From a phage, in sequence record NC_101838.1: a stretch of 64,000 nucleotides of DNA; one strand, written 5' to 3'. A model generated the notes under the pieces. It was not told the DNA's origin and did not search any database. It saw nothing but the letters and a program-made list of their open reading frames with translations. Positions 2,769-62,915 of the stretch are shown here, piece by piece. Position numbers and translations under genes: made by a program. The number at the start of each line of letters is the position of its first letter. The stretch's first letter is position 1.

Positions 2769-3194
2769 ATGATCTATGAAATGCCAAAACTGATTCGTGA
2801 CGATGCCCAAAACGCTCACACCATTATTATGGGCAAACGCATGGATATTATTTGTCATAAAGATTTCTGGGAAGGAAGTTACTTCACAGAGTATTTTGGT
2901 AAACTGGACAATGGTCTGCTGATCCAGTTCTACACCGATGCGGAAAACAACATTCCCTGGGAGTTCGAAACTGAAGATGTCCATAAACTTTTCACCTTCC
3001 TCGGTATTAAGGTTAAGGCCAAGTTTGAAGAAGGTGAGTGCGACGATTGTGGATTTTATGAGGTAACAGATTTCTACCTTCCTAGCGGTAAGAACCTTTA
3101 CTATGAAAGCCACTTCGGTAACTCCAATATGCCACAGTGCTGGACTGAGTTTTTTGAAATTGCGGAAGAGGAGCTGGCTTACCGTGATTATTGA
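2769..3194 (+). CDS. hypothetical protein (141 aa)
   Basis: ORF preceded by caggag; stop overlaps the probable GTG start of the next gene. Confidence 0.5.
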   Translation: MIYEMPKLIRDDAQNAHTIIMGKRMDIICHKDFWEGSYFTEYFGKLDNGLLIQFYTDAENNIPWEFETEDVHKLFTFLGIKVKAKFEEGECDDCGFYEVTDFYLPSGKNLYYESHFGNSNMPQCWTEFFEIAEEELAYRDY

Positions 3195-3642
3195 TACTGT
3201 AGAGGGAGATTTAATCTCCCTTTTTAAGAGCGGTGCTGGTCACCTGATCCACGGTTGTAACTGCTTCCACACAATGGGCAAGGGTATAGCAAAACAGATT
3301 GCCCGTGAGTTTCCTCAAGCACTGTCAGCCGACAAAGAGACTAGATACGGTTGCCTAAGTAAACTGGGTGCGTTCTCCCGATGGGAGCACTTATCTCCGG
3401 TAGGTATTGTCTACGGAATCAATCTATATACCCAGTTCTACCCAGGACCTAATGCTGAGTATTTCTCAATCCTGAAAGGCTTTGAGCTAGTCAATGAAGT
3501 ATTCAGCGGATCGACTTTACCATTCTACATCCCTAAGATCGGGTGCGGCATAGGCGGTTTGAAGTGGGAACACGTAGAGGACGTTATTAACCTTGCCACT
3601 TTCGACATAGATATTGTCGTGGTGGAGTACAAAAAGTGTTGA
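3184..3642 (+). CDS. macrodomain protein, TARG1/OARD1-like (O-acyl-ADP-ribose deacylase / ADP-ribosyl hydrolase family)
   Basis: Motifs GAGHLIHGCNCFHTMGKGIAKQI and IPKIGCGIGGLKWEHV resemble the TARG1/C6orf130 macrodomain signature as recalled (AHCISEDCRMGAGIA ... MPRIGCGLDRLQWENV). Probable GTG start at 3184 with gaagaggag upstream; the track ORF starts at an upstream ATG (3103) inside the previous gene. Confidence 0.6.
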   Translation: MIIDTVEGDLISLFKSGAGHLIHGCNCFHTMGKGIAKQIAREFPQALSADKETRYGCLSKLGAFSRWEHLSPVGIVYGINLYTQFYPGPNAEYFSILKGFELVNEVFSGSTLPFYIPKIGCGIGGLKWEHVEDVINLATFDIDIVVVEYKKC

Positions 3643-53426: not shown

Positions 53427-54710
53427 TCATTCCAGAACCTCCCAAGTGTCTGGGTTAACATTTCGGACGCAGATACCGACAGGGAATTGGTAGTTGTTGT
53501 CTTCTGTCCTTGCTTGATATTTGAAGGTGACAAACTTGCCGATCATTTCCTGCATCCTGTCATAGCTACGCTCCTCGTGCGTGCCTTTCATCTTCATTTT
53601 AACAACAACACCTTCCTTGTCAACACAGATAAGAACACCTTCATCATTCTTATCTTTCTCAACGTCAATAACTTTCACCTCTGCGTCGTTGAACTTTTTC
53701 CATTTCAATGCTTCAGATGTTCGCTGACCATACTCATATTTACCGCAGAAGTTACGCATAATGGTACCTTCATATCCTTCAGACATAAATATACCAACAG
53801 ACTCTTCGCACCGATCAACCGTATATGCAAGCTCTGCATCAACAACCTTAATATGATCAAGCATCAAAGAAGTAATAGCACCGTTTGCCTCCATAAGATC
53901 CTTACAGCGACCAGACTCTGTTTCAGGATCCCACCACACCTTATCGCTAGGGATATCGAAAATATGATACTCTAGGTCGTAGCTGCAGTACCCACCGTAA
54001 CGCAAATCATCACGAACAGGCTCAACATCGACAGGAATATCTACCTTGTTGAAGTTTTTGTATGTTGATAAGCCTGCCTTAATTGCTGCATGACGGCGTT
54101 TTTTATCTGCCTCATAGTCTTTATCGATCTCGGCCTGAATCTCTTCCTGTGTGCGCCACCGTTTAGCAAGAGACACTATTTTCTGCAAAGGAAGACCATG
54201 AATGTATAGTTCCCCATCAAGTTGTTTAATCCCAGTGGTAGAATGGAAAGAACGAAGTTGCTCTAAAAGCTTTCCTTGAATAGGGTAGGACTTATTACCA
54301 CGGGAAATAAATTTAGGCTCACCATTTTGGAAAACAACAAGCAGACGAAGGCCATCTAACTTACGCAAGATCCAGCAAGGTAATTTAAGTGCCTTGCCAC
54401 GCTTCAGGTAGTCATGCACCAGCATGGGTAAAAGATCAACACCCTGCTCGCAATCTTCCATGTTTTCAACATACCCCAGACGGACTTGTTTTTCCCACTT
54501 GCTGATAGCCTCAAGCTCGGCCTGTTGCTCAGCTGTAGTCTCGTTGGCACGACCTACGTTCTTAGGTGTGCATACCGTCTCTTTGTACTGCAGTTTACCA
54601 TCAAGCTTGCCAAACTCTACGATAACCTTATCACCATCCGTGAATACTTTCCACTGTTGGTAGCTGCCATCTTTATTCAGTGCGTACAGTGTTGTTTTGA
54701 TCTGATGCAT
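53427..54710 (-). CDS. ATP-dependent DNA ligase
   Basis: Nucleotidyltransferase motif I ILRKLDGLR (KxDG), motif IV EGYEGTIMR, motif V KWKK; 427 aa. Confidence 0.75.
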   Translation of the reverse strand: MHQIKTTLYALNKDGSYQQWKVFTDGDKVIVEFGKLDGKLQYKETVCTPKNVGRANETTAEQQAELEAISKWEKQVRLGYVENMEDCEQGVDLLPMLVHDYLKRGKALKLPCWILRKLDGLRLLVVFQNGEPKFISRGNKSYPIQGKLLEQLRSFHSTTGIKQLDGELYIHGLPLQKIVSLAKRWRTQEEIQAEIDKDYEADKKRRHAAIKAGLSTYKNFNKVDIPVDVEPVRDDLRYGGYCSYDLEYHIFDIPSDKVWWDPETESGRCKDLMEANGAITSLMLDHIKVVDAELAYTVDRCEESVGIFMSEGYEGTIMRNFCGKYEYGQRTSEALKWKKFNDAEVKVIDVEKDKNDEGVLICVDKEGVVVKMKMKGTHEERSYDRMQEMIGKFVTFKYQARTEDNNYQFPVGICVRNVNPDTWEVLE

Positions 54711-55302: not shown

Positions 55303-55330
55303 TAATAAGTAAAGCCGGGTAATCCCGGCT
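55303..55330 (-). terminator. putative terminator (minus strand)
   Basis: Hairpin agccggg-taat-cccggct with a T-rich tract on the minus strand. Confidence 0.45.
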
Positions 55331-55336
55331 ATGTTG

Positions 55337-56050
55337 TTAAATATACTCTGTTACATCCTTGAAGCTCGAAGGCTTCATAATCTTACCTTTACTGTCAAGG
55401 AATATAATAACTTTATTACCGTTGTAGAACTCCTCTTTAGCAACGAAACCTTCGTAGCGACCACCAAAACGACGCTCAAGATCTTCAATCTCTAACTCTA
55501 TGAGCAATTCAGTAGACATATCTGCACTGGCACCGTGAGAATATCGTAGATGGTTGATCCGTGCAAACTTGCTGTCATTAGATTTGAGAACCTTCCGCAT
55601 CATCCCACACACATCGCCGCGAAGCTGGAACAGCAAAGCTGTTGACAACTCCGCTAAGCGGTAAGCTGACGCTCTTTGCTTGGATGTGTTTTTCGCAGCG
55701 ATCAGTGTATCATAGAACTCACCGATCTTGAACTTAAGACCTCGTGGATTATCAAACAGGTTTGACCACTTTTCGTGATTATCATTAACAAGATAAGCGG
55801 CATAACTTGTGACAACGTGAAGATCGCAGGCCTCTTTTAGCAGGTGATCTCCACCATCACCTTTCTCCAGCTCTTCCAAAACCTCATTGAACTCTTCCTC
55901 AATGAAGCTAAGCTGTAATTCGAATGGTGTGTATGATTTTTTCACTTTAGCTGCCACACGGTTCCAGTTTTCCACCCAGTTGGCAGACCAAAGGTAGTTT
56001 TCAGGCTGAGACAGTTTTTCCAGGTTGTCGATCAGTTTAGTATTCAGCAT
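55337..56050 (-). CDS. hypothetical protein with MazG-like NTP pyrophosphohydrolase-type motif (237 aa)
   Basis: EEEFNEVLEELEKGDGGDHLLKEACDL resembles the MazG EE..E...E...D...ExxD.L signature; C-terminal half unassigned. Confidence 0.4.
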   Translation of the reverse strand: MLNTKLIDNLEKLSQPENYLWSANWVENWNRVAAKVKKSYTPFELQLSFIEEEFNEVLEELEKGDGGDHLLKEACDLHVVTSYAAYLVNDNHEKWSNLFDNPRGLKFKIGEFYDTLIAAKNTSKQRASAYRLAELSTALLFQLRGDVCGMMRKVLKSNDSKFARINHLRYSHGASADMSTELLIELEIEDLERRFGGRYEGFVAKEEFYNGNKVIIFLDSKGKIMKPSSFKDVTEYI

Positions 56051-56063
56051 TAAAGGTCTCCTT

Positions 56064-56825
56064 TTAAAGTTCCATAAAGTTTTCTACAGTTTCAATAAAT
56101 GCTTTATCAGAGAAAGCGTCAACAGCACCGTTAAACCATACAGGGATCCCGCGATCCTCATATTGATAAAGGTCGCTACGTGAAATGCCACTTCCATCTG
56201 CACTCTGCGAGTCATACTTGTTTACAATCAGCAGTTTTGTGCCTTTACAAGTAGCAGGAAACAATTCCCAGTTAAAATTAATAACTGTGTTAGAACAACC
56301 TACTAGGATCACCATATCATTGCTTGTGAGAGATGTCAACAGGTCATACATGTCTGTATACTTAGGAGCAACCTCACCGAAGAACACTACATTGGGCTTA
56401 ACCCAGGTATACTTGCCTGTATCTACCTCCGTGTATCCGATATTTTTAATTACATCATTACCTTCAGCATCTTCGTAGGTGATTTCAGGCAAATACCCGT
56501 GGACATGTAAAATATCTTCATGTTTTACACCAGCACGCTCCAGCAAATCATCTACATTGGTGGTAAGGTTGATCACACGACCAGACCAGCGGGAATACCA
56601 CTCAGCGATCCGAAGATGTGCAAGGTTAGGATCAACACTGCCCAGAGCTACACGACGTGCATTGTAAAAGTCATGCACCTTATAGTAATTCTTGGCAAAG
56701 GTGTGGATGTTGCACACCTCATCGATGCTGAAATTCTCCCACATTGCAGTGCTACCAGATCGGAAAGTGGGAATACCAGATTCAGCGCTCAAACCAGCAC
56801 CGGAGATAATAATCAGTCGTCGCAT
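56064..56825 (-). CDS. Sir2-family (sirtuin-like) NAD-dependent enzyme lacking an obvious zinc ribbon
   Basis: ISGAGLSAESGIPTFRS (Rossmann/NAD motif), TTNVDDL, HVHG (catalytic His), VVFFGE, ILVGCSNTV; no CxxC...CxxC pairs seen. Confidence 0.8.
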   Translation of the reverse strand: MRRLIIISGAGLSAESGIPTFRSGSTAMWENFSIDEVCNIHTFAKNYYKVHDFYNARRVALGSVDPNLAHLRIAEWYSRWSGRVINLTTNVDDLLERAGVKHEDILHVHGYLPEITYEDAEGNDVIKNIGYTEVDTGKYTWVKPNVVFFGEVAPKYTDMYDLLTSLTSNDMVILVGCSNTVINFNWELFPATCKGTKLLIVNKYDSQSADGSGISRSDLYQYEDRGIPVWFNGAVDAFSDKAFIETVENFMEL

Positions 56826-56833
56826 AAGTGTCC

Positions 56834-57184
56834 TCAGTAGATGTTTTGTTTAATCTCTATTCCAAACTTCTTGAATGAGTCAGCAGCAAGCATAAATTTA
56901 CGAGCTGCCGATGGATTAGAAGTATGCACGAAAATAATCACGTTGTCAATAAGTGGTGGCTTTCCGAATACAAGTTTCTCCTCTAGCGCAGAGAAGCAGT
57001 CGTACCCTTCAAGCACTTCACCTAGATCATTGTCAAAATACCACTCAGATACGCGTCTGTAGAGCTTTCTCTTATCATTAAGAAAATCCATAAACTCAGA
57101 AGAATTCTTTAGCCACAGAGCGTCTGGGAGTCCATAATCTGACGGATCTCTAAAATCATCAAGCCACACAATCCACTTCTTCAT
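56834..57184 (-). CDS. hypothetical protein (116 aa)
   Basis: ORF between the RNA ligase and Sir2 genes; overlapping stop/start on both sides. Confidence 0.5.
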   Translation of the reverse strand: MKKWIVWLDDFRDPSDYGLPDALWLKNSSEFMDFLNDKRKLYRRVSEWYFDNDLGEVLEGYDCFSALEEKLVFGKPPLIDNVIIFVHTSNPSAARKFMLAADSFKKFGIEIKQNIY

Positions 57185-58116
57185 TGCATATAGTCCTCGT
57201 TGTGGAAATAGTAGTCCAGTATCTCACGACGCTCCTGCTCTAATAAGCAATTCCACACATCTTCTGTATAGTTGCTACGAATAAATTTTACCATACCGTA
57301 AAACTCTTCGTCAACACGTTTAAAGATATCATCATCCCAAATCTTCCAAGCTTTACCCCTCATTACTGCCTTCCGTGCCAGATAGTATGGAGACTTGATC
57401 TTCAGCTGCAGATCATAAGGGTAGTAAGGCTTACGAATCATATACCCTTCACCTCTTGTTTCTGCAGCTAATTCTTTTGCATAGCTGAACGGAATTTCAC
57501 GCACAGTGTTAGGACGTTTTGCACCAAGGTATTTGGCAATCCCATCTAAAGCTGCTTCTGGTAGCATTATTCCAGAATCATTATATCTGCAACCTATCAA
57601 ATATGCGCCATGGTCTTCTTGAACAATATGCGGATCTGAAGGGTGACAAATTTCAAACATGAATGTCATGTTTTCATTGCCCATAACCTTCTTGATAAGA
57701 TCTAAATTACCACATTGCTCTTGGATGGTTTCCTTTGCAAGGTTACAATATGGAGAATCAAGAGACCCGGTTGTTGAGAACAATAGGTCACCTTTATGAG
57801 ATGATACCACACCAAGGAATCCGTTCTTTTTCTCTACCGCAGTCACAAGCTTATTGTCAGGCAGGTTGGTGGAGTTTTCTCCCAAGTTAAACACTTTTGT
57901 GAAGGGCCATGCCACAACATTTCCTTCATTACCTACAACAATGCCTCGGCACTCCAGTAAACGAGGGGACAAATGCCATAAATTGTTGTAAAATACTTTT
58001 CTAGCATATTTATAGATCTTTAACCCGAGATCTGGGTAATACCTACTGGTTGCAAGACCTTTGTCAACTAGGTCGTCTGCATTAAAATACTTCATTATAT
58101 GTTCCTCATTTGTCAT
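57181..58116 (-). CDS. rnlA: RNA ligase, T4 Rnl1 (RnlA)-like
   Basis: LSPRLLECRGIVV and KVFNLGENSTNLP match recalled T4 Rnl1 segments (LPDALECRGIMF, KFFNLNENP); motif I VEKKNG (KxDG/NG) near residue 97, motif IV EGYMIRK, motif V KIKSP. Confidence 0.7.
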   Translation of the reverse strand: MTNEEHIMKYFNADDLVDKGLATSRYYPDLGLKIYKYARKVFYNNLWHLSPRLLECRGIVVGNEGNVVAWPFTKVFNLGENSTNLPDNKLVTAVEKKNGFLGVVSSHKGDLLFSTTGSLDSPYCNLAKETIQEQCGNLDLIKKVMGNENMTFMFEICHPSDPHIVQEDHGAYLIGCRYNDSGIMLPEAALDGIAKYLGAKRPNTVREIPFSYAKELAAETRGEGYMIRKPYYPYDLQLKIKSPYYLARKAVMRGKAWKIWDDDIFKRVDEEFYGMVKFIRSNYTEDVWNCLLEQERREILDYYFHNEDYMQ

Positions 58117-58159
58117 TTTGTCAGTCTATCCTGCCACACAAATAACTTAGTGTCAACAC

Positions 58160-58188
58160 TTGAAATTAACAAAACAGTTAGGTATACT
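58160..58188 (+). promoter_or_regulatory. sigma70-like promoter (TTGAAA-17-TATACT) in divergent intergenic region
   Basis: Hexamers upstream of the kinase gene; the minus-strand block starts 45 nt to the left. Confidence 0.5.
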
Positions 58189-58216
58189 ACCGTTGAAATT
58201 AAAACGGAGGGTCGCT

Positions 58217-58627
58217 ATGTCTAAAATGCTATATATCGTGCGTGGTCTACCAGGGTCTGGCAAATCAACACTGGCAAATGCGCTATCTTTAGAGGGTCTG
58301 TATCCACATTTTGAGAACGACATGTTCTGGTATGACGATGACGGCAATTACAACTGGGATGCAAGTAAAGTAACACTCGCAGCAAAATGGTGCAAAGATA
58401 ACGTAGAAGATATGATGCGTATGGGATACGACCGTATCGTGGTAAGTAATACGTTTACAAAAGAAAAACATGTGCAGGAATATGTTGACATGGCAATCAC
58501 TCATGGGTATAGTTATACCGTGATCGTGGTTGAAAACCGCCACGGTAATAAAAGCATTCATGATGTTCCAGACAAGGTTGTGGATCGTATGGAACGCCAG
58601 CTTAAAAACTGCATTAAACTTAAATGA
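58217..58627 (+). CDS. P-loop kinase, polynucleotide 5'-kinase-like
   Basis: Walker A LYIVRGLPGSGKSTLA resembles the T4 Pnk kinase N-terminus (GCPGSGKSTWA); ggagg SD; 136 aa. Confidence 0.6.
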   Translation: MSKMLYIVRGLPGSGKSTLANALSLEGLYPHFENDMFWYDDDGNYNWDASKVTLAAKWCKDNVEDMMRMGYDRIVVSNTFTKEKHVQEYVDMAITHGYSYTVIVVENRHGNKSIHDVPDKVVDRMERQLKNCIKLK

Positions 58628-58634
58628 GGAATGT

Positions 58635-59189
58635 ATGAAATACTTTGTAACAAGCGACACACACTTTCTCCACCAGCGGGTCATGGAGTTTGATTCATGT
58701 CAAAAACACAGATCTCAGTATGATCACAATCTTGACAGTATGAATGCGGGAATCATCACCAAGTGGAACTCTGTTGTGTCACCTGCAGACACTGTGTTCC
58801 ACTTGGGAGATATTGCATGCACTAATGATAAGAATATCAACAAATTGCTCCCAGATATTCTAAATATGTTGAACGGACATATTATTCTTGTTCGTGGCAA
58901 CCATGACACAAGGACGACTGTCAAAATTATGAAAGAGTTCGGTCATGAGGTTGTAGATTATTACGAGCTTCGCCACAACAAGAATTTGATCTGTATGAGC
59001 CATTACCAGTTTGCAAAGTGGAACAGAAAGCCTCACGGATCAGTCCAACTGTTCGGTCATGCTCACGGAACCACACAACAGTTGTTTGGCAGGCAGCTTG
59101 ATGTCGGTTGGGATGTGTGGGGGAGACTCTTACCATTAGAAGAGGCATACCGTATTGCAATGAGTTTTGATATTGACAGCAGGGAGTAA
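58635..59189 (+). CDS. calcineurin-like metallophosphoesterase
   Basis: Metallophosphatase motifs SDTHF, GDI, GNHD, GHAH in canonical order; starts 8 nt after the kinase stop. Confidence 0.7.
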   Translation: MKYFVTSDTHFLHQRVMEFDSCQKHRSQYDHNLDSMNAGIITKWNSVVSPADTVFHLGDIACTNDKNINKLLPDILNMLNGHIILVRGNHDTRTTVKIMKEFGHEVVDYYELRHNKNLICMSHYQFAKWNRKPHGSVQLFGHAHGTTQQLFGRQLDVGWDVWGRLLPLEEAYRIAMSFDIDSRE

Positions 59190-62102: not shown

Positions 62103-62177
62103 GCCCTGTTAGCTTAGTGGATAAAGCAGCGGCCTTCTAAGCCGTTGACACTGGTTCGAGTCCAGTACGGGGTGCCA
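62103..62177 (+). tRNA. tRNA-Arg (anticodon UCU)
   Basis: Manual cloverleaf fold: 7-bp acceptor, D-arm agtggata, anticodon loop cuUCUaa, T-loop ttcgagt, encoded CCA. Confidence 0.85.
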
Positions 62178-62181
62178 AATT

Positions 62182-62268
62182 GGGGAGTTATCCCGTAGAG
62201 GTAGCGGTGTAGACTGTAAATCTATTGTCATTGCGACTCGGGTGGTTCGACTCCACCACTCCCCACCA
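62182..62268 (+). tRNA. tRNA-Tyr (anticodon GUA)
   Basis: Perfect 7-bp acceptor (ggggagt/actcccc), anticodon loop cuGUAaa, long variable arm, T-loop ttcgact, encoded CCA. Confidence 0.8.
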
Positions 62269-62382
62269 AATTTATATTTTTAGATGCATAAATAATACAG
62301 ATAATGGCATTGATATTTATCGTCGTTTATACTAGTCACTAACTGCTCGAAAATCAGTGTCATTATCAGTATTATTTATAAA

Positions 62383-62473
62383 GGAGGGTAGGGAGCAATG
62401 GTGCTCAAGCGGTCTTGAAAACCGTCCCGTTGAGGATGACTCGATGATGGTTCGATTCCATTACTCTCCGCCA
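62383..62473 (+). tRNA. tRNA-Ser (anticodon UGA)
   Basis: Acceptor ggagggt/actctcc, anticodon loop cuUGAaa, long variable arm, T-loop ttcgatt, encoded CCA. Confidence 0.8.
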
Positions 62474-62571
62474 CATTGTTGACCTTGTAATTAAGCGAAA
62501 GTCGGAAGCAGAACCGGATTATCAAATGTTACAGTCGTCATCGCCGACTAGCAACATGGTCAACATACTGA

Positions 62572-62670
62572 GCTAGGTAAGCCCTTTGGCAAGGGCGAGG
62601 ATTTTTAATCCTGAAAATAGACGAGGTAGTCGTTGAATACATAGGTGGTTCGATTCCATCACCTAGCACC
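62572..62670 (+). ncRNA. aberrant tRNA-like element (about 97 nt) lacking a canonical anticodon arm
   Basis: Good acceptor (gctaggt/acctagc), D-arm and T-arm (ggtgg-ttcgatt-ccatc), but the region between holds two 5-bp/5-nt-loop hairpins instead of a 7-nt anticodon loop. Confidence 0.35.
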
Positions 62671-62675
62671 TTTTT

Positions 62676-62751
62676 GCTGATGTAGCACAATCGGTAGTGC
62701 AATTGATTTGTAATCAATAGGTTGTAGGTTCAAGTCCTGCCATCAGCACCA
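62676..62751 (+). tRNA. tRNA-Thr (anticodon UGU)
   Basis: Acceptor gctgatg/catcagc, anticodon stem attga/tcaat with loop uuUGUaa, encoded CCA. Confidence 0.8.
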
Positions 62752-62752
62752 A

Positions 62753-62827
62753 GGCCCTGTAGCTGGAAGGTTCAAGCAAGCGACTCATAATCGCCAGACG
62801 GTGGTTCAATTCCACCCAGGGCCACCA
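62753..62827 (+). tRNA. tRNA with CAU anticodon (Met or lysidine-Ile)
   Basis: Acceptor ggccctg/cagggcc, anticodon loop cuCAUaa, T-loop ttcaatt, encoded CCA. Confidence 0.75.
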
Positions 62828-62838
62828 AATAGTAAATA

Positions 62839-62915
62839 CTCCGCGTAGCTCAGCTTGGTAGAGCGCCTGATTTGGGATCAGGAGGTCGAGTGTTCGAATC
62901 ACTCCGTGGAGACCA
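62839..62915 (+). tRNA. tRNA-Pro (anticodon UGG)
   Basis: Acceptor ctccgcg/cgtggag, canonical D-arm agctcagcttggtagagc, anticodon loop uuUGGga, T-loop ttcgaat, encoded CCA. Confidence 0.85.

What the first reader, a model, noticed from the sequence alone, without database searches (positions are those of the whole stretch)
56064..56825. Zinc-less Sir2-family protein in a virulent phage, flanked by a MazG-like and an RNA-ligase gene
The NAD-binding and catalytic-His motifs of sirtuins are present but the usual four-Cys zinc ribbon is not apparent, an architecture typical of bacterial Sir2 NADase or mono-ADP-ribosyltransferase domains rather than classical deacetylases. A phage copy could modify host proteins, manipulate NAD+ pools, or act together with the macrodomain encoded 53 kb away; it sits in a block with RNA-repair genes.
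Basis: partly seen in the sequence, partly recalled or inferred. Interest (0 to 1): 0.65.

Follow-up and report, generated by a model that had tools for sequence, protein, structure and literature searches.

The report
Zinc-less phage sirtuin in RNA-repair operon
This is a real, well-conserved sirtuin gene of an rV5-like coliphage that has lost its zinc-binding cysteines and sits inside an RNA-repair gene cluster; both features are already published, but what the enzyme actually does has never been tested.

The parts
56064..56825 (-). Zinc-less Sir2-family protein, 253 aa, class III-derived. Key codons: Y54 56664-56666, R57 56655-56657, T89 56559-56561, N90 56556-56558, D92 56550-56552, catalytic H109 56499-56501.
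   Evidence: Pfam SIR2 6.9e-28; PHROG 2162 1.5e-108; CobB and SIRT5 are the best PDB hits; no Cys in residues 110-147; AF2 pLDDT 89.9; dN/dS 0.10.
56834..57184 (-). cREC (cyclic-phosphate-processing receiver-like) protein, 116 aa. It lies between the RNA ligase and the sirtuin, with an 8-bp gap to Sir2 and a 4-bp overlap with the ligase.
   Evidence: Pfam cREC_REC PF20274 9.1e-14, above cutoff; PHROG 1479 6e-33; gene spacing; predicted role from PMC7824862 and PMC9503650.
57181..58116 (-). Rnl1-type (T4 RnlA-like) ATP-dependent RNA ligase, first gene of the unit.
   Evidence: Pfam RNA_lig_T4_1 1e-14; PHROG 562 2.7e-65; annotated as RNA ligase in relatives.
55337..56050 (-). MazG-like nucleotide pyrophosphohydrolase candidate, 237 aa, 13 bp downstream of Sir2.
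   Evidence: PHROG 671 'nucleotide pyrophosphohydrolase' 5.7e-22; no Pfam or PDB sequence hit; called a MazG superfamily pyrophosphatase in PMC9503650.
55313..55330 (-). GC-rich terminator-like hairpin just after the MazG-like gene; probable 3' end of the four-gene unit.
   Evidence: Consensus scan: 7-bp stem with 6 GC pairs. This is a pattern match only.
58217..58627 (+). P-loop nucleotide or polynucleotide kinase-like protein, 136 aa, divergently transcribed.
   Evidence: Pfam AAA_33 1.6e-10; PHROG 2071 and PHROG 505 'polynucleotide kinase' 7e-10; annotated as polynucleotide kinase in phage CarlMeissner.
58635..59189 (+). Calcineurin-like metallophosphoesterase, 184 aa.
   Evidence: Pfam Metallophos_2 and Metallophos; PHROG 547 1.8e-52; PDB 1xm7 5e-11.
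53427..54710 (-). ATP-dependent DNA ligase, same strand. It directly abuts the sirtuin in Mydo-like phages.
   Evidence: Pfam DNA_ligase_A_M and OB_2; PHROG 114 2e-83; adjacency in L023-L031 and L058.
3103..3642 (+). Macrodomain protein, 179 aa. A possible scavenger of ADP-ribose by-products, but not linked to the sirtuin.
   Evidence: Pfam Macro 27.4 bits against cutoff 22; PHROG 335 5.7e-59; PDB relatives are YmdB-like Appr-1''-p processing proteins, ADPr-1''-phosphate phosphatases and OARD1.
62103..62915 (+). Phage tRNA gene cluster (7 ARAGORN calls) about 3 kb beyond the repair block.
   Evidence: ARAGORN; Rfam tRNA, 6 hits.

Best explanation
The gene encodes a catalytically competent, NAD+-consuming sirtuin that descends from CobB/SIRT5-type (class III) enzymes and has lost its zinc ligands. 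It works as one component of the phage's RNA end-healing module. The most likely reaction is the one predicted by Iyer et al. 2022, an analogue of KptA/Tpt1. A 2'-phosphate on RNA is left when a cyclic phosphodiesterase (the adjacent cREC is the candidate) opens the 2',3'-cyclic phosphate made by host anticodon nucleases. That phosphate attacks C1'' of NAD+, releasing nicotinamide. [quoted passage not shown] The kinase phosphorylates the 5'-OH, the Rnl1-like ligase seals the break, and cREC, the phosphoesterase or the distant macrodomain clear the ADP-ribose phosphate by-products. Shown here: family, fold, intact catalytic residues, zinc loss, purifying selection, tight operonic packing, and recurrence of RNA-end-processing neighbours. 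Inferred, not shown: the substrate, the chemistry, and the role of each partner.
For: (1) All residues needed for nicotinamide cleavage and 2''-OH activation are invariant across 30 relatives: G9 A10 G11 S16 F21 R22 N90 D92 H109; dN/dS is 0.10. (2) Rnl1, cREC, Sir2 and MazG-like are packed with a 4-bp overlap and gaps of 8 and 13 bp, followed by a hairpin; a kinase and a metallophosphoesterase are transcribed divergently. (3) Three different neighbourhood types recur around the zinc-less sirtuins: the rV5/Mydo/147-kb type with ligase, kinase, phosphoesterase, MazG-like and usually cREC (13 loci); the T5-like type with the RNA-repair HAD_SAK_2 phosphatase (about 29 loci; Pfam 4e-20); and the jumbo-phage type 2H - Sir2 - Nudix - cREC - PIN-PhoH. 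(4) None of the 16 zinc-containing, Q89 viral sirtuin loci has any such neighbour within 5 kb. (5) Zinc loss co-varies with Q-to-T in the TQNID motif: 79 Q+Zn and 36 T+no-Zn against 19 mixed. This suggests a remodelled active site in this lineage. (6) No KptA homologue occurs in any of 110 sirtuin- or cREC-anchored viral loci. The 98 phage records that do carry KptA are Erwinia, Dickeya and Klebsiella jumbo phages and Clostridioides phages, not the Escherichia or Salmonella groups that carry the sirtuin. (7) The Tpt1 two-step mechanism (phosphate attacks NAD+ C1'', then O2'' transesterification; PMC11417386 abstract) parallels the sirtuin mechanism of acyl-oxygen attack on C1' followed by 2'-OH attack through a cyclic intermediate. 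The sirtuin mechanism is established knowledge, and SIRT5 'bicyclic intermediate' structures are among the top fold hits. (8) The same prediction was published independently, naming phage V5 (PMC9503650).
Against: There is no experimental evidence anywhere for this activity. The protein's closest relatives are protein deacylases, and it keeps the FGE loop and the class III Tyr/Arg pair. The clade is strongly acidic (median pI 5.1, net charge about -12) whereas E. coli KptA has pI 9.4; this is weak evidence, because the neighbouring ligases are also acidic. T5-like phages carry the sirtuin but no Rnl1-type ligase (14 Salmonella phage records with the ligase against 287 with the sirtuin), so a strictly post-ligation role cannot be universal. 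In phi92-like phages the repair block is intact but the sirtuin lies about 33 kb away. About 15 zinc-less loci have no repair neighbours, and the neighbours of 18 residual loci (10 of them zinc-less) are mixed in function. R57 is Leu in the jumbo-phage members. The host already encodes KptA. Adjacency in phage genomes is weaker evidence than in bacterial operons.
Confidence: 0.4

Rival explanations
1. It is a protein lysine deacylase (deacetylase or desuccinylase) like its nearest relatives CobB and SIRT5. It removes acyl groups from host or phage proteins during infection, for example reactivating acetyl-CoA synthetase (proposed by Skliros et al. 2016) or the lysine-dependent ligases encoded beside it. 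Under this reading the loss of zinc is a structural simplification with no change of function.
Against: It scores far below every CobB equivalog cut-off (104 against 320; 122.6 against 243). The canonical Q of TQNID is T. The CobB acetyl-lysine tunnel residue P221 is Asn183 here, and Y220 is Ile182. This model does not explain the recurrent embedding among cyclic-phosphate and RNA-end enzymes, nor why only zinc-less members show it. The host already has CobB.
Confidence: 0.3
2. It acts on small molecules rather than macromolecules. It turns NAD+ into ADP-ribose or a phospho- or cyclic ADP-ribose derivative, or consumes such molecules, as part of a phage module that manipulates NAD+/ADP-ribose pools or destroys nucleotide immune signals. 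cREC, 2H, Nudix, HAD and Macro would process the products.
For: In jumbo phages the sirtuin sits between an Acb1-like 2H phosphodiesterase (PF23474 1.6e-16) and a Nudt16-like Nudix, with NAMPT 3 kb away. NAMPT or NAPRTase also recurs near more distant members. cREC and Macro are predicted to process ADP-ribose derivatives (PMC9503650).
Confidence: 0.12
3. It is a SirTM-like mono-ADP-ribosyltransferase that modifies a host protein or nucleic acid for host takeover, and the phage macrodomain reverses or limits the modification.
For: The macrodomain exists in the same genome. Sirtuins can ADP-ribosylate (PMC9503650). Phages commonly use ADP-ribosylation.
Confidence: 0.1

Closest known systems
Phage RNA-repair-associated sirtuin clade, neighbourhood type 2 ('Escherichia phage V5 and Proteus phage Mydo'), Iyer, Burroughs, Anantharaman and Aravind 2022 (PMC9503650)
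   Same: Same phage group and same gene set: sirtuin, T4-like RNA ligase, cREC, nucleotide kinase, MazG-type pyrophosphatase and calcineurin-like phosphoesterase. The window is a member of this described system.
   Different: Nothing substantive. The paper did not report the zinc loss, the Q-to-T covariation, the restriction of repair contexts to zinc-less members, or the caveats found here (acidic pI, T5-like phages without the ligase, unlinked genes in phi92-like phages).
Zinc-less Sir2/CobB of large Vibrio phages (phiSt2, phiGrn1, KVP40), Skliros et al. 2016 (PMC5107563)
   Same: Homologous phage sirtuins (41-50% identity over about 200 residues). They lack zinc ligands, keep the catalytic His and were modelled on E. 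coli CobB. T5 is listed in that paper among the phages that also carry a Sir2/CobB gene.
   Different: The Vibrio phage proteins have FNE and INP tunnel motifs, whereas this protein has FGE and V-I-N. The proposed function there is deacetylation of host Acs, and the RNA-repair context was not considered.
E. coli CobB and human SIRT5 (class III sirtuin deacylases)
   Same: Best sequence and fold match, with the same Rossmann domain plus small-domain layout. GAGxS, FYxxRR (Tyr/Arg pair), NxD, HG and FGE motifs are shared.
   Different: No zinc-binding cysteines; TQNID is TTNVD; CobB Y220-P221 is I182-N183; the GTS motif is GCS; the score is below the CobB equivalog cut-offs; the protein is phage-encoded inside an RNA-repair operon.
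KptA/Tpt1 RNA 2'-phosphotransferase
   Same: The hypothesised reaction, the NAD+ co-substrate, the two-step chemistry through a C1'' adduct and 2''-OH attack, and an association with RNA ligases and cyclic phosphodiesterases.
   Different: An unrelated fold (ADP-ribosyltransferase superfamily) with no sequence similarity. KptA is basic, while this protein is acidic. This would be analogy only, and it is unproven.
Defence-associated Sir2 NADases (ThsA, DSR1/2, Sir2-HerA, KomC, Avs5)
   Same: Sir2 superfamily, NAD+ binding, and conserved Asn and His.

Membership tests
Sir2/sirtuin superfamily (Pfam PF02146) | Profile match above the curated threshold | tested here: met
   98.2 bits against cutoff 24, E 6.9e-28, residues 9-181 cover the whole profile.
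Sir2/sirtuin superfamily (Pfam PF02146) | Rossmann domain plus small domain fold | tested here: met
Sir2/sirtuin superfamily (Pfam PF02146) | Catalytic His plus NAD-pocket Asn and Asp and the GAGxS motif | tested here: met
   H109, N90, D92 and G9-A10-G11 are invariant in 30 relatives and in about 145 representatives.
Class III sirtuin deacylases (CobB/SIRT5) | Closest relatives by sequence and structure | tested here: met
Class III sirtuin deacylases (CobB/SIRT5) | Tyr-x-x-Arg pair that binds acidic acyl groups (SIRT5 Y102/R105) | tested here: met
   Y54 and R57 in FYNARR align to the SIRT5 FYHYRR and CobB FYNARR motifs and are invariant in A1. R57 is Leu in jumbo-phage members.
Class III sirtuin deacylases (CobB/SIRT5) | Cys-based zinc ribbon in the small domain | tested here: not met
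   No Cys in residues 110-147. The only cysteines are C38, C177 and C193. The same holds in all 30 aligned relatives.
Class III sirtuin deacylases (CobB/SIRT5) | Score above the NCBIfam CobB equivalog or subfamily cut-offs | tested here: not met
   122.6 against 243 (NF001753), 104 against 320 (NF040867), 93 against 318 (NF001755).
Class III sirtuin deacylases (CobB/SIRT5) | Acetyl-lysine tunnel residues (CobB F190, V219, Y220, P221) | tested here: inconclusive
   F149 and V181 are kept; Y220 becomes I182 and P221 becomes N183 (residue list from PMC5107563). P221 is variable across the wider viral family and does not track zinc status.
Class III sirtuin deacylases (CobB/SIRT5) | NAD-dependent lysine deacylase activity | not testable with these tools
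   Needs an enzyme assay.
Phage RNA-repair sirtuin system, type 2 (Iyer et al. 2022) | Sirtuin linked to T4-like RNA ligase, cREC, nucleotide kinase, MazG-type pyrophosphatase and calcineurin-like phosphoesterase in an rV5- or Mydo-type phage | tested here: met
   All six genes lie within 55337-59189. The window is 99.9% identical to a Vequintavirus. The same block occurs in L002, L023-L031, L042-L058.
KptA/Tpt1 RNA 2'-phosphotransferase (PF01885) | Homology to the ADP-ribosyltransferase-fold Tpt1 family | tested here: not met
   The only Pfam hit is SIR2. E. coli KptA finds nothing in the sirtuin loci. It can only be an analogue.
KptA/Tpt1 RNA 2'-phosphotransferase (PF01885) | [quoted passage not shown] | not testable with these tools
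   Needs biochemistry or tpt1-delta complementation.
Defence Sir2 NADases (ThsA, DSR, Sir2-HerA, Avs5, KomC) | Match to defence-system Sir2 profiles | tested here: not met
   PADLOC gives only a spurious 13-bit hit at E 0.011.
Defence Sir2 NADases (ThsA, DSR, Sir2-HerA, Avs5, KomC) | Fold closer to NADase sirtuins than to deacylases; fused sensor domains or partner genes | tested here: not met
SirTM (macrodomain-linked ADP-ribosylating sirtuins) | Operonic pairing with a macrodomain gene | tested here: not met
   The macro gene is at 3103-3642 on the plus strand, 52 kb away on the other strand.
SirTM (macrodomain-linked ADP-ribosylating sirtuins) | Closest structural class | tested here: not met

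The most novel reading that the evidence does not exclude
The zinc-less, T89 phage sirtuins are a neofunctionalised branch of class III sirtuins in which the acyl-lysine nucleophile has been replaced by a phosphate monoester on RNA. That would make them the first sirtuins acting on nucleic acid, a non-homologous analogue of Tpt1/KptA, with loss of the zinc ribbon cysteines and the Q-to-T change as sequence markers of the switch. The hypothesis itself is published; a demonstration would be new.
Probability: 0.35. Interest if true: 0.8.

Novelty: already known. Interest (0 to 1): 0.35.

Why it matters
About a thousand sequenced phages carry this enzyme, including T5-like and rV5-like phages used as models and in therapy. 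It is routinely annotated as an NAD-dependent deacetylase with no evidence. If it removes RNA 2'-phosphates, that would be a new sirtuin chemistry and a new arm of phage counter-defence against tRNA-cleaving immunity. If it is a deacylase, it would be a phage tool for rewriting host protein acylation. Either outcome would correct or validate a widespread annotation. The competing predictions can be separated with a few standard assays.

Tried and rejected
(1) PADLOC scan for defence Sir2 models: no real hit, so the ThsA/DSR-like reading was rejected.
(2) In-situ displacement test, asking whether KptA occupies the sirtuin's slot in other phages. E. coli KptA found no homologue in 110 sirtuin- or cREC-anchored viral loci. 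The KptA neighbourhoods of three jumbo phages contain only proteins with no Pfam domain. Inconclusive.
(3) cREC-anchored search. Distant cREC loci (L094-L112) carry neither the sirtuin nor KptA, so cREC does not require either partner.
(4) Sequence comparison of the ligase, kinase, cREC and MazG-like proteins with PDB: nothing useful except the phosphoesterase (1xm7).
(5) The idea that Y54/R57 bind the RNA phosphate was weakened. R57 is Leu in the jumbo-phage members, and in SIRT5 this pair binds the distal carboxylate rather than the reacting atom (the second point is my own knowledge).
(6) The idea that P221-to-Asn marks loss of peptide binding. That position is variable across the family and does not track zinc status, so it was dropped as a marker.
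(7) Batch Pfam scan of 149 neighbours from 18 residual loci: mixed functions and no repair enrichment.
(8) Literature searches for experimental work on T5, rV5 or other phage sirtuins: none found.
The second structure prediction and the third fold search were not used.

Full report
**What is there.** The ORF at 56064-56825 on the minus strand encodes 253 aa. It matches Pfam SIR2 over the whole profile (E 6.9e-28, 98.2 bits against a cutoff of 24) and PHROG 2162 'Sir2' at 1.5e-108. The surrounding 3.2 kb is 99.9% identical to Escherichia phage vB_EcoM_SophiaRose and 97-99.8% identical to many other Vequintavirus (rV5-like) genomes. In those records the gene is already annotated as a 'Sir2-like protein' or 'sirtuin domain NAD-dependent deacetylase'. 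The gene has a GAGGA ribosome-binding site, and dN/dS is 0.10 against a 90%-identical orthologue. It is a real gene under selection.

**The observation.** All sirtuin NAD-pocket and catalytic motifs are present: GAGLS 9-13, TFR 20-22, FYNARR 53-58, TTNVD 88-92, HVHG 107-110, FGE 149-151 and VGCS 175-178. His109, Asn90 and Asp92 are invariant in 30 relatives at 47-93% identity. The protein has three cysteines (C38, C177, C193). None lies in residues 110-147, where sirtuins carry the C-x-x-C...C-x-x-C zinc ribbon, and none of the 30 relatives has a cysteine there. AlphaFold2 (pLDDT 89.9, pTM 0.88) still places a confident three-stranded sheet at that position (strands 110-118, 124-128, 142-146). 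The module is therefore kept, but without metal ligands. The MazG-like gene (55337-56050) is the direct downstream neighbour. The macrodomain protein exists at 3103-3642 on the plus strand.

**Which kind of sirtuin.** The requested comparisons do not support this.
- phmmer against PDB ranks E. coli CobB (3e-21) and human SIRT5 (6e-21) first.
- Foldseek's top 50 hits are all deacylase sirtuins: CobB, Sir2-Af1/2, SIRT5, SIRT2 and Sir2Tm.
- No PADLOC defence Sir2 model matches.
- The class III Tyr/Arg pair is retained: Y54/R57 align to the SIRT5 and CobB FY..RR motif.

The protein is nonetheless not an ordinary CobB. It scores far below every NCBIfam CobB cut-off. The canonical Gln of TQNID is Thr89. 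The CobB tunnel residues Y220 and P221 are Ile182 and Asn183 (residue names from PMC5107563).

**Family structure.** An exhaustive search of 1.84 billion representatives found 5,496 relatives at E<=1e-3. Among the top 150 or so, the zinc ribbon and the Gln/Thr position co-vary: 79 have Gln and at least three ribbon cysteines, 36 have Thr and at most two, and 19 are mixed (Fisher p 2e-15, not corrected for phylogeny). The zinc-less state is thus a derived feature of one lineage within a largely viral sirtuin family, and it comes with a change in the NAD pocket. In GenBank phages the protein has homologues in 975 records, mainly Escherichia, Salmonella, Klebsiella and Vibrio phages.

**Genomic context.** In the window, Rnl1-like ligase, cREC, Sir2 and MazG-like are packed with a 4-bp overlap and gaps of 8 and 13 bp. 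A GC-rich hairpin follows at 55313-55330. A P-loop kinase (58217-58627) and a calcineurin-like phosphoesterase (58635-59189) are transcribed divergently. An ATP-dependent DNA ligase lies further downstream, and a tRNA cluster starts at 62103.

I anchored on the sirtuin in 80 IMG/VR loci and searched their ORFs with iterated HMMs of the neighbours.
- Thirteen rV5-, Mydo- and 147-kb-type loci keep most or all of the ligase, kinase, phosphoesterase, MazG-like and DNA ligase genes within 3.5 kb; eight of them also have cREC.
- About 29 T5-like loci place a HAD_SAK_2 'Swiss-army-knife RNA repair' phosphatase directly downstream. L003 has the genome size of T5 itself (Pfam 4e-20).
- Three jumbo-phage loci show NAMPT ... 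2H (Acb1-like) - Sir2 - ORF - Nudix (Nudt16-like) - cREC - PIN-PhoH.
- None of the 16 zinc-containing, Q89 viral loci has any of these neighbours.

The link is not universal. In phi92-like phages the repair block is intact but the sirtuin lies about 33 kb away in the same contigs. About 15 zinc-less loci have no repair neighbours. A batch Pfam scan of 149 neighbours from 18 residual loci showed only mixed functions.

**Prior literature.** Skliros et al. 2016 (PMC5107563) had already reported that the Sir2/CobB of Vibrio phages phiSt2, phiGrn1 and KVP40 lacks zinc ligands. They listed T5, SPC35, GAP32, My1 and JD001 as phages that also carry a Sir2/CobB gene, and proposed that the enzyme deacetylates host acetyl-CoA synthetase. 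Iyer et al. 2021 (PMC7824862) defined cREC as a predicted cyclic-phosphate-processing enzyme linked to RNA ligases. Iyer et al. [quoted passage not shown] They predicted that this sirtuin clade removes RNA 2'-phosphates with NAD+, analogously to KptA/Tpt1. I found no experimental test of any of these ideas.

**Mechanism.** The Tpt1-like model is favoured at about 0.4. Host anticodon nucleases leave a 2',3'-cyclic phosphate and a 5'-OH. A cyclic phosphodiesterase (cREC is the candidate) opens the cyclic phosphate to a 2'-phosphate. The kinase and the Rnl1-like ligase heal and seal the break. [quoted passage not shown] The two-step Tpt1 chemistry (PMC11417386) closely parallels the sirtuin mechanism, which is established knowledge. 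In support, KptA is absent from all 110 sirtuin- or cREC-anchored loci, and in GenBank phages it is confined to other groups (98 records, mostly Erwinia, Dickeya and Klebsiella jumbo phages and Clostridioides phages).

**Evidence against the Tpt1-like model.**
- The clade is strongly acidic (median pI 5.1, net charge -12) whereas KptA has pI 9.4. This is weak evidence, because the adjacent ligases are also acidic.
- T5-like carriers lack an Rnl1-type ligase: the ligase is in 14 Salmonella phage records and the sirtuin in 287.
- The genes are unlinked in phi92-like phages.
- R57 is Leu in the jumbo-phage members.
- The E. coli host already has kptA.
- The nearest relatives are all protein deacylases.

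**Rival explanations.** A conventional deacylase role (about 0.3) therefore remains a serious rival. A small-molecule NAD+/ADP-ribose role (about 0.12) and a SirTM-like ADP-ribosyltransferase role (about 0.1) are less likely.

**Verdict.** It is wrong on class, because the protein is CobB/SIRT5-derived, not ThsA-, DSR- or SirTM-like. The feature is already known, both as an annotated gene and as a published computational prediction. What this analysis adds is modest:
- a non-redundant structural ranking of the protein among sirtuin classes;
- the covariation of zinc loss with Q-to-T;
- the restriction of RNA-repair contexts to zinc-less members;
- several caveats for the Tpt1-like model.

The biochemical function is still open and is readily testable.

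Noticed in passing
window 62572-62670 and 62383-62473: The tRNA cluster contains an unusually long (97-99 nt) tRNA-like gene. ARAGORN cannot assign it (it calls a 4-base anticodon), Rfam scores it only 35.5 bits, and phage CarlMeissner annotates the equivalent as tRNA-Lys. ARAGORN also calls a tRNA-Ser(tga) at 62383-62473 that Rfam does not report at gathering threshold and that is not annotated in the relative.
   Followed up: partly
phage collection records MG065653, MG065654, MG065666, MG065676, MG065692 and others: Eighteen to 25 records named 'Campylobacter phage' are 96-100% identical to E. coli vequintaviruses or T5-like phages across this region. This looks like host mis-assignment or contamination in those deposits.
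   Followed up: no
L060 5366-13802 (IMG/VR jumbo phage contig, 366 kb); also L064, L066: A conserved jumbo-phage cluster: NAMPT ... Acb1-like 2H phosphodiesterase - zinc-less sirtuin - unknown 122-aa ORF - Nudt16-like Nudix - cREC - PIN-PhoH. The 2H protein matches the anti-CBASS Acb1 family better than the generic 2H family, which hints at a nucleotide-signal or ADP-ribose-processing role.
   Followed up: partly
L033-L035 versus L090-L092 (the same phi92-like contigs, about 149 kb): These phages keep the cREC-ligase-kinase-phosphoesterase-MazG-like-DNA ligase block, but their sirtuin lies about 33 kb away, next to DUF7275/DUF7277 proteins.
   Followed up: partly
L003 11651-12481 (T5-sized contig) and other T5-like loci: Two tandem DUF7415 proteins always follow the sirtuin-HAD_SAK_2 pair in T5-like phages. 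NrdD and PhoH lie upstream.
   Followed up: no
window about 20000 and about 58100: The GC skew changes sign at about 20 kb and about 58 kb, matching switches in gene orientation. The 58117-58216 gap is a divergent intergenic region between the ligase operon and the kinase/phosphoesterase genes.
   Followed up: no
window 58160-58627 and 58530-59189: The mechanical ORF starts (TTG at 58160 and at 58530) are probably too far upstream. Relatives annotate ATG starts that correspond to 58217 and 58635.
   Followed up: partly
alignment A1 columns 51-82 (between residues 50 and 51 of the window protein): T5-like and phi92-like members carry a 20-30-residue insertion in the helical small domain that the rV5- and Mydo-like members lack. 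rV5-like and some T5-like members instead have an insertion of about 12 residues near 203-216, which is modelled with low confidence.
   Followed up: no
window 38th codon of the sirtuin (C38); representatives: Cys38, in a conserved E-V-C motif, is invariant in the phage clade and present in about 80% of both zinc-containing and zinc-less relatives, whereas CobB has Ala at that position. Its role is unknown.
   Followed up: no
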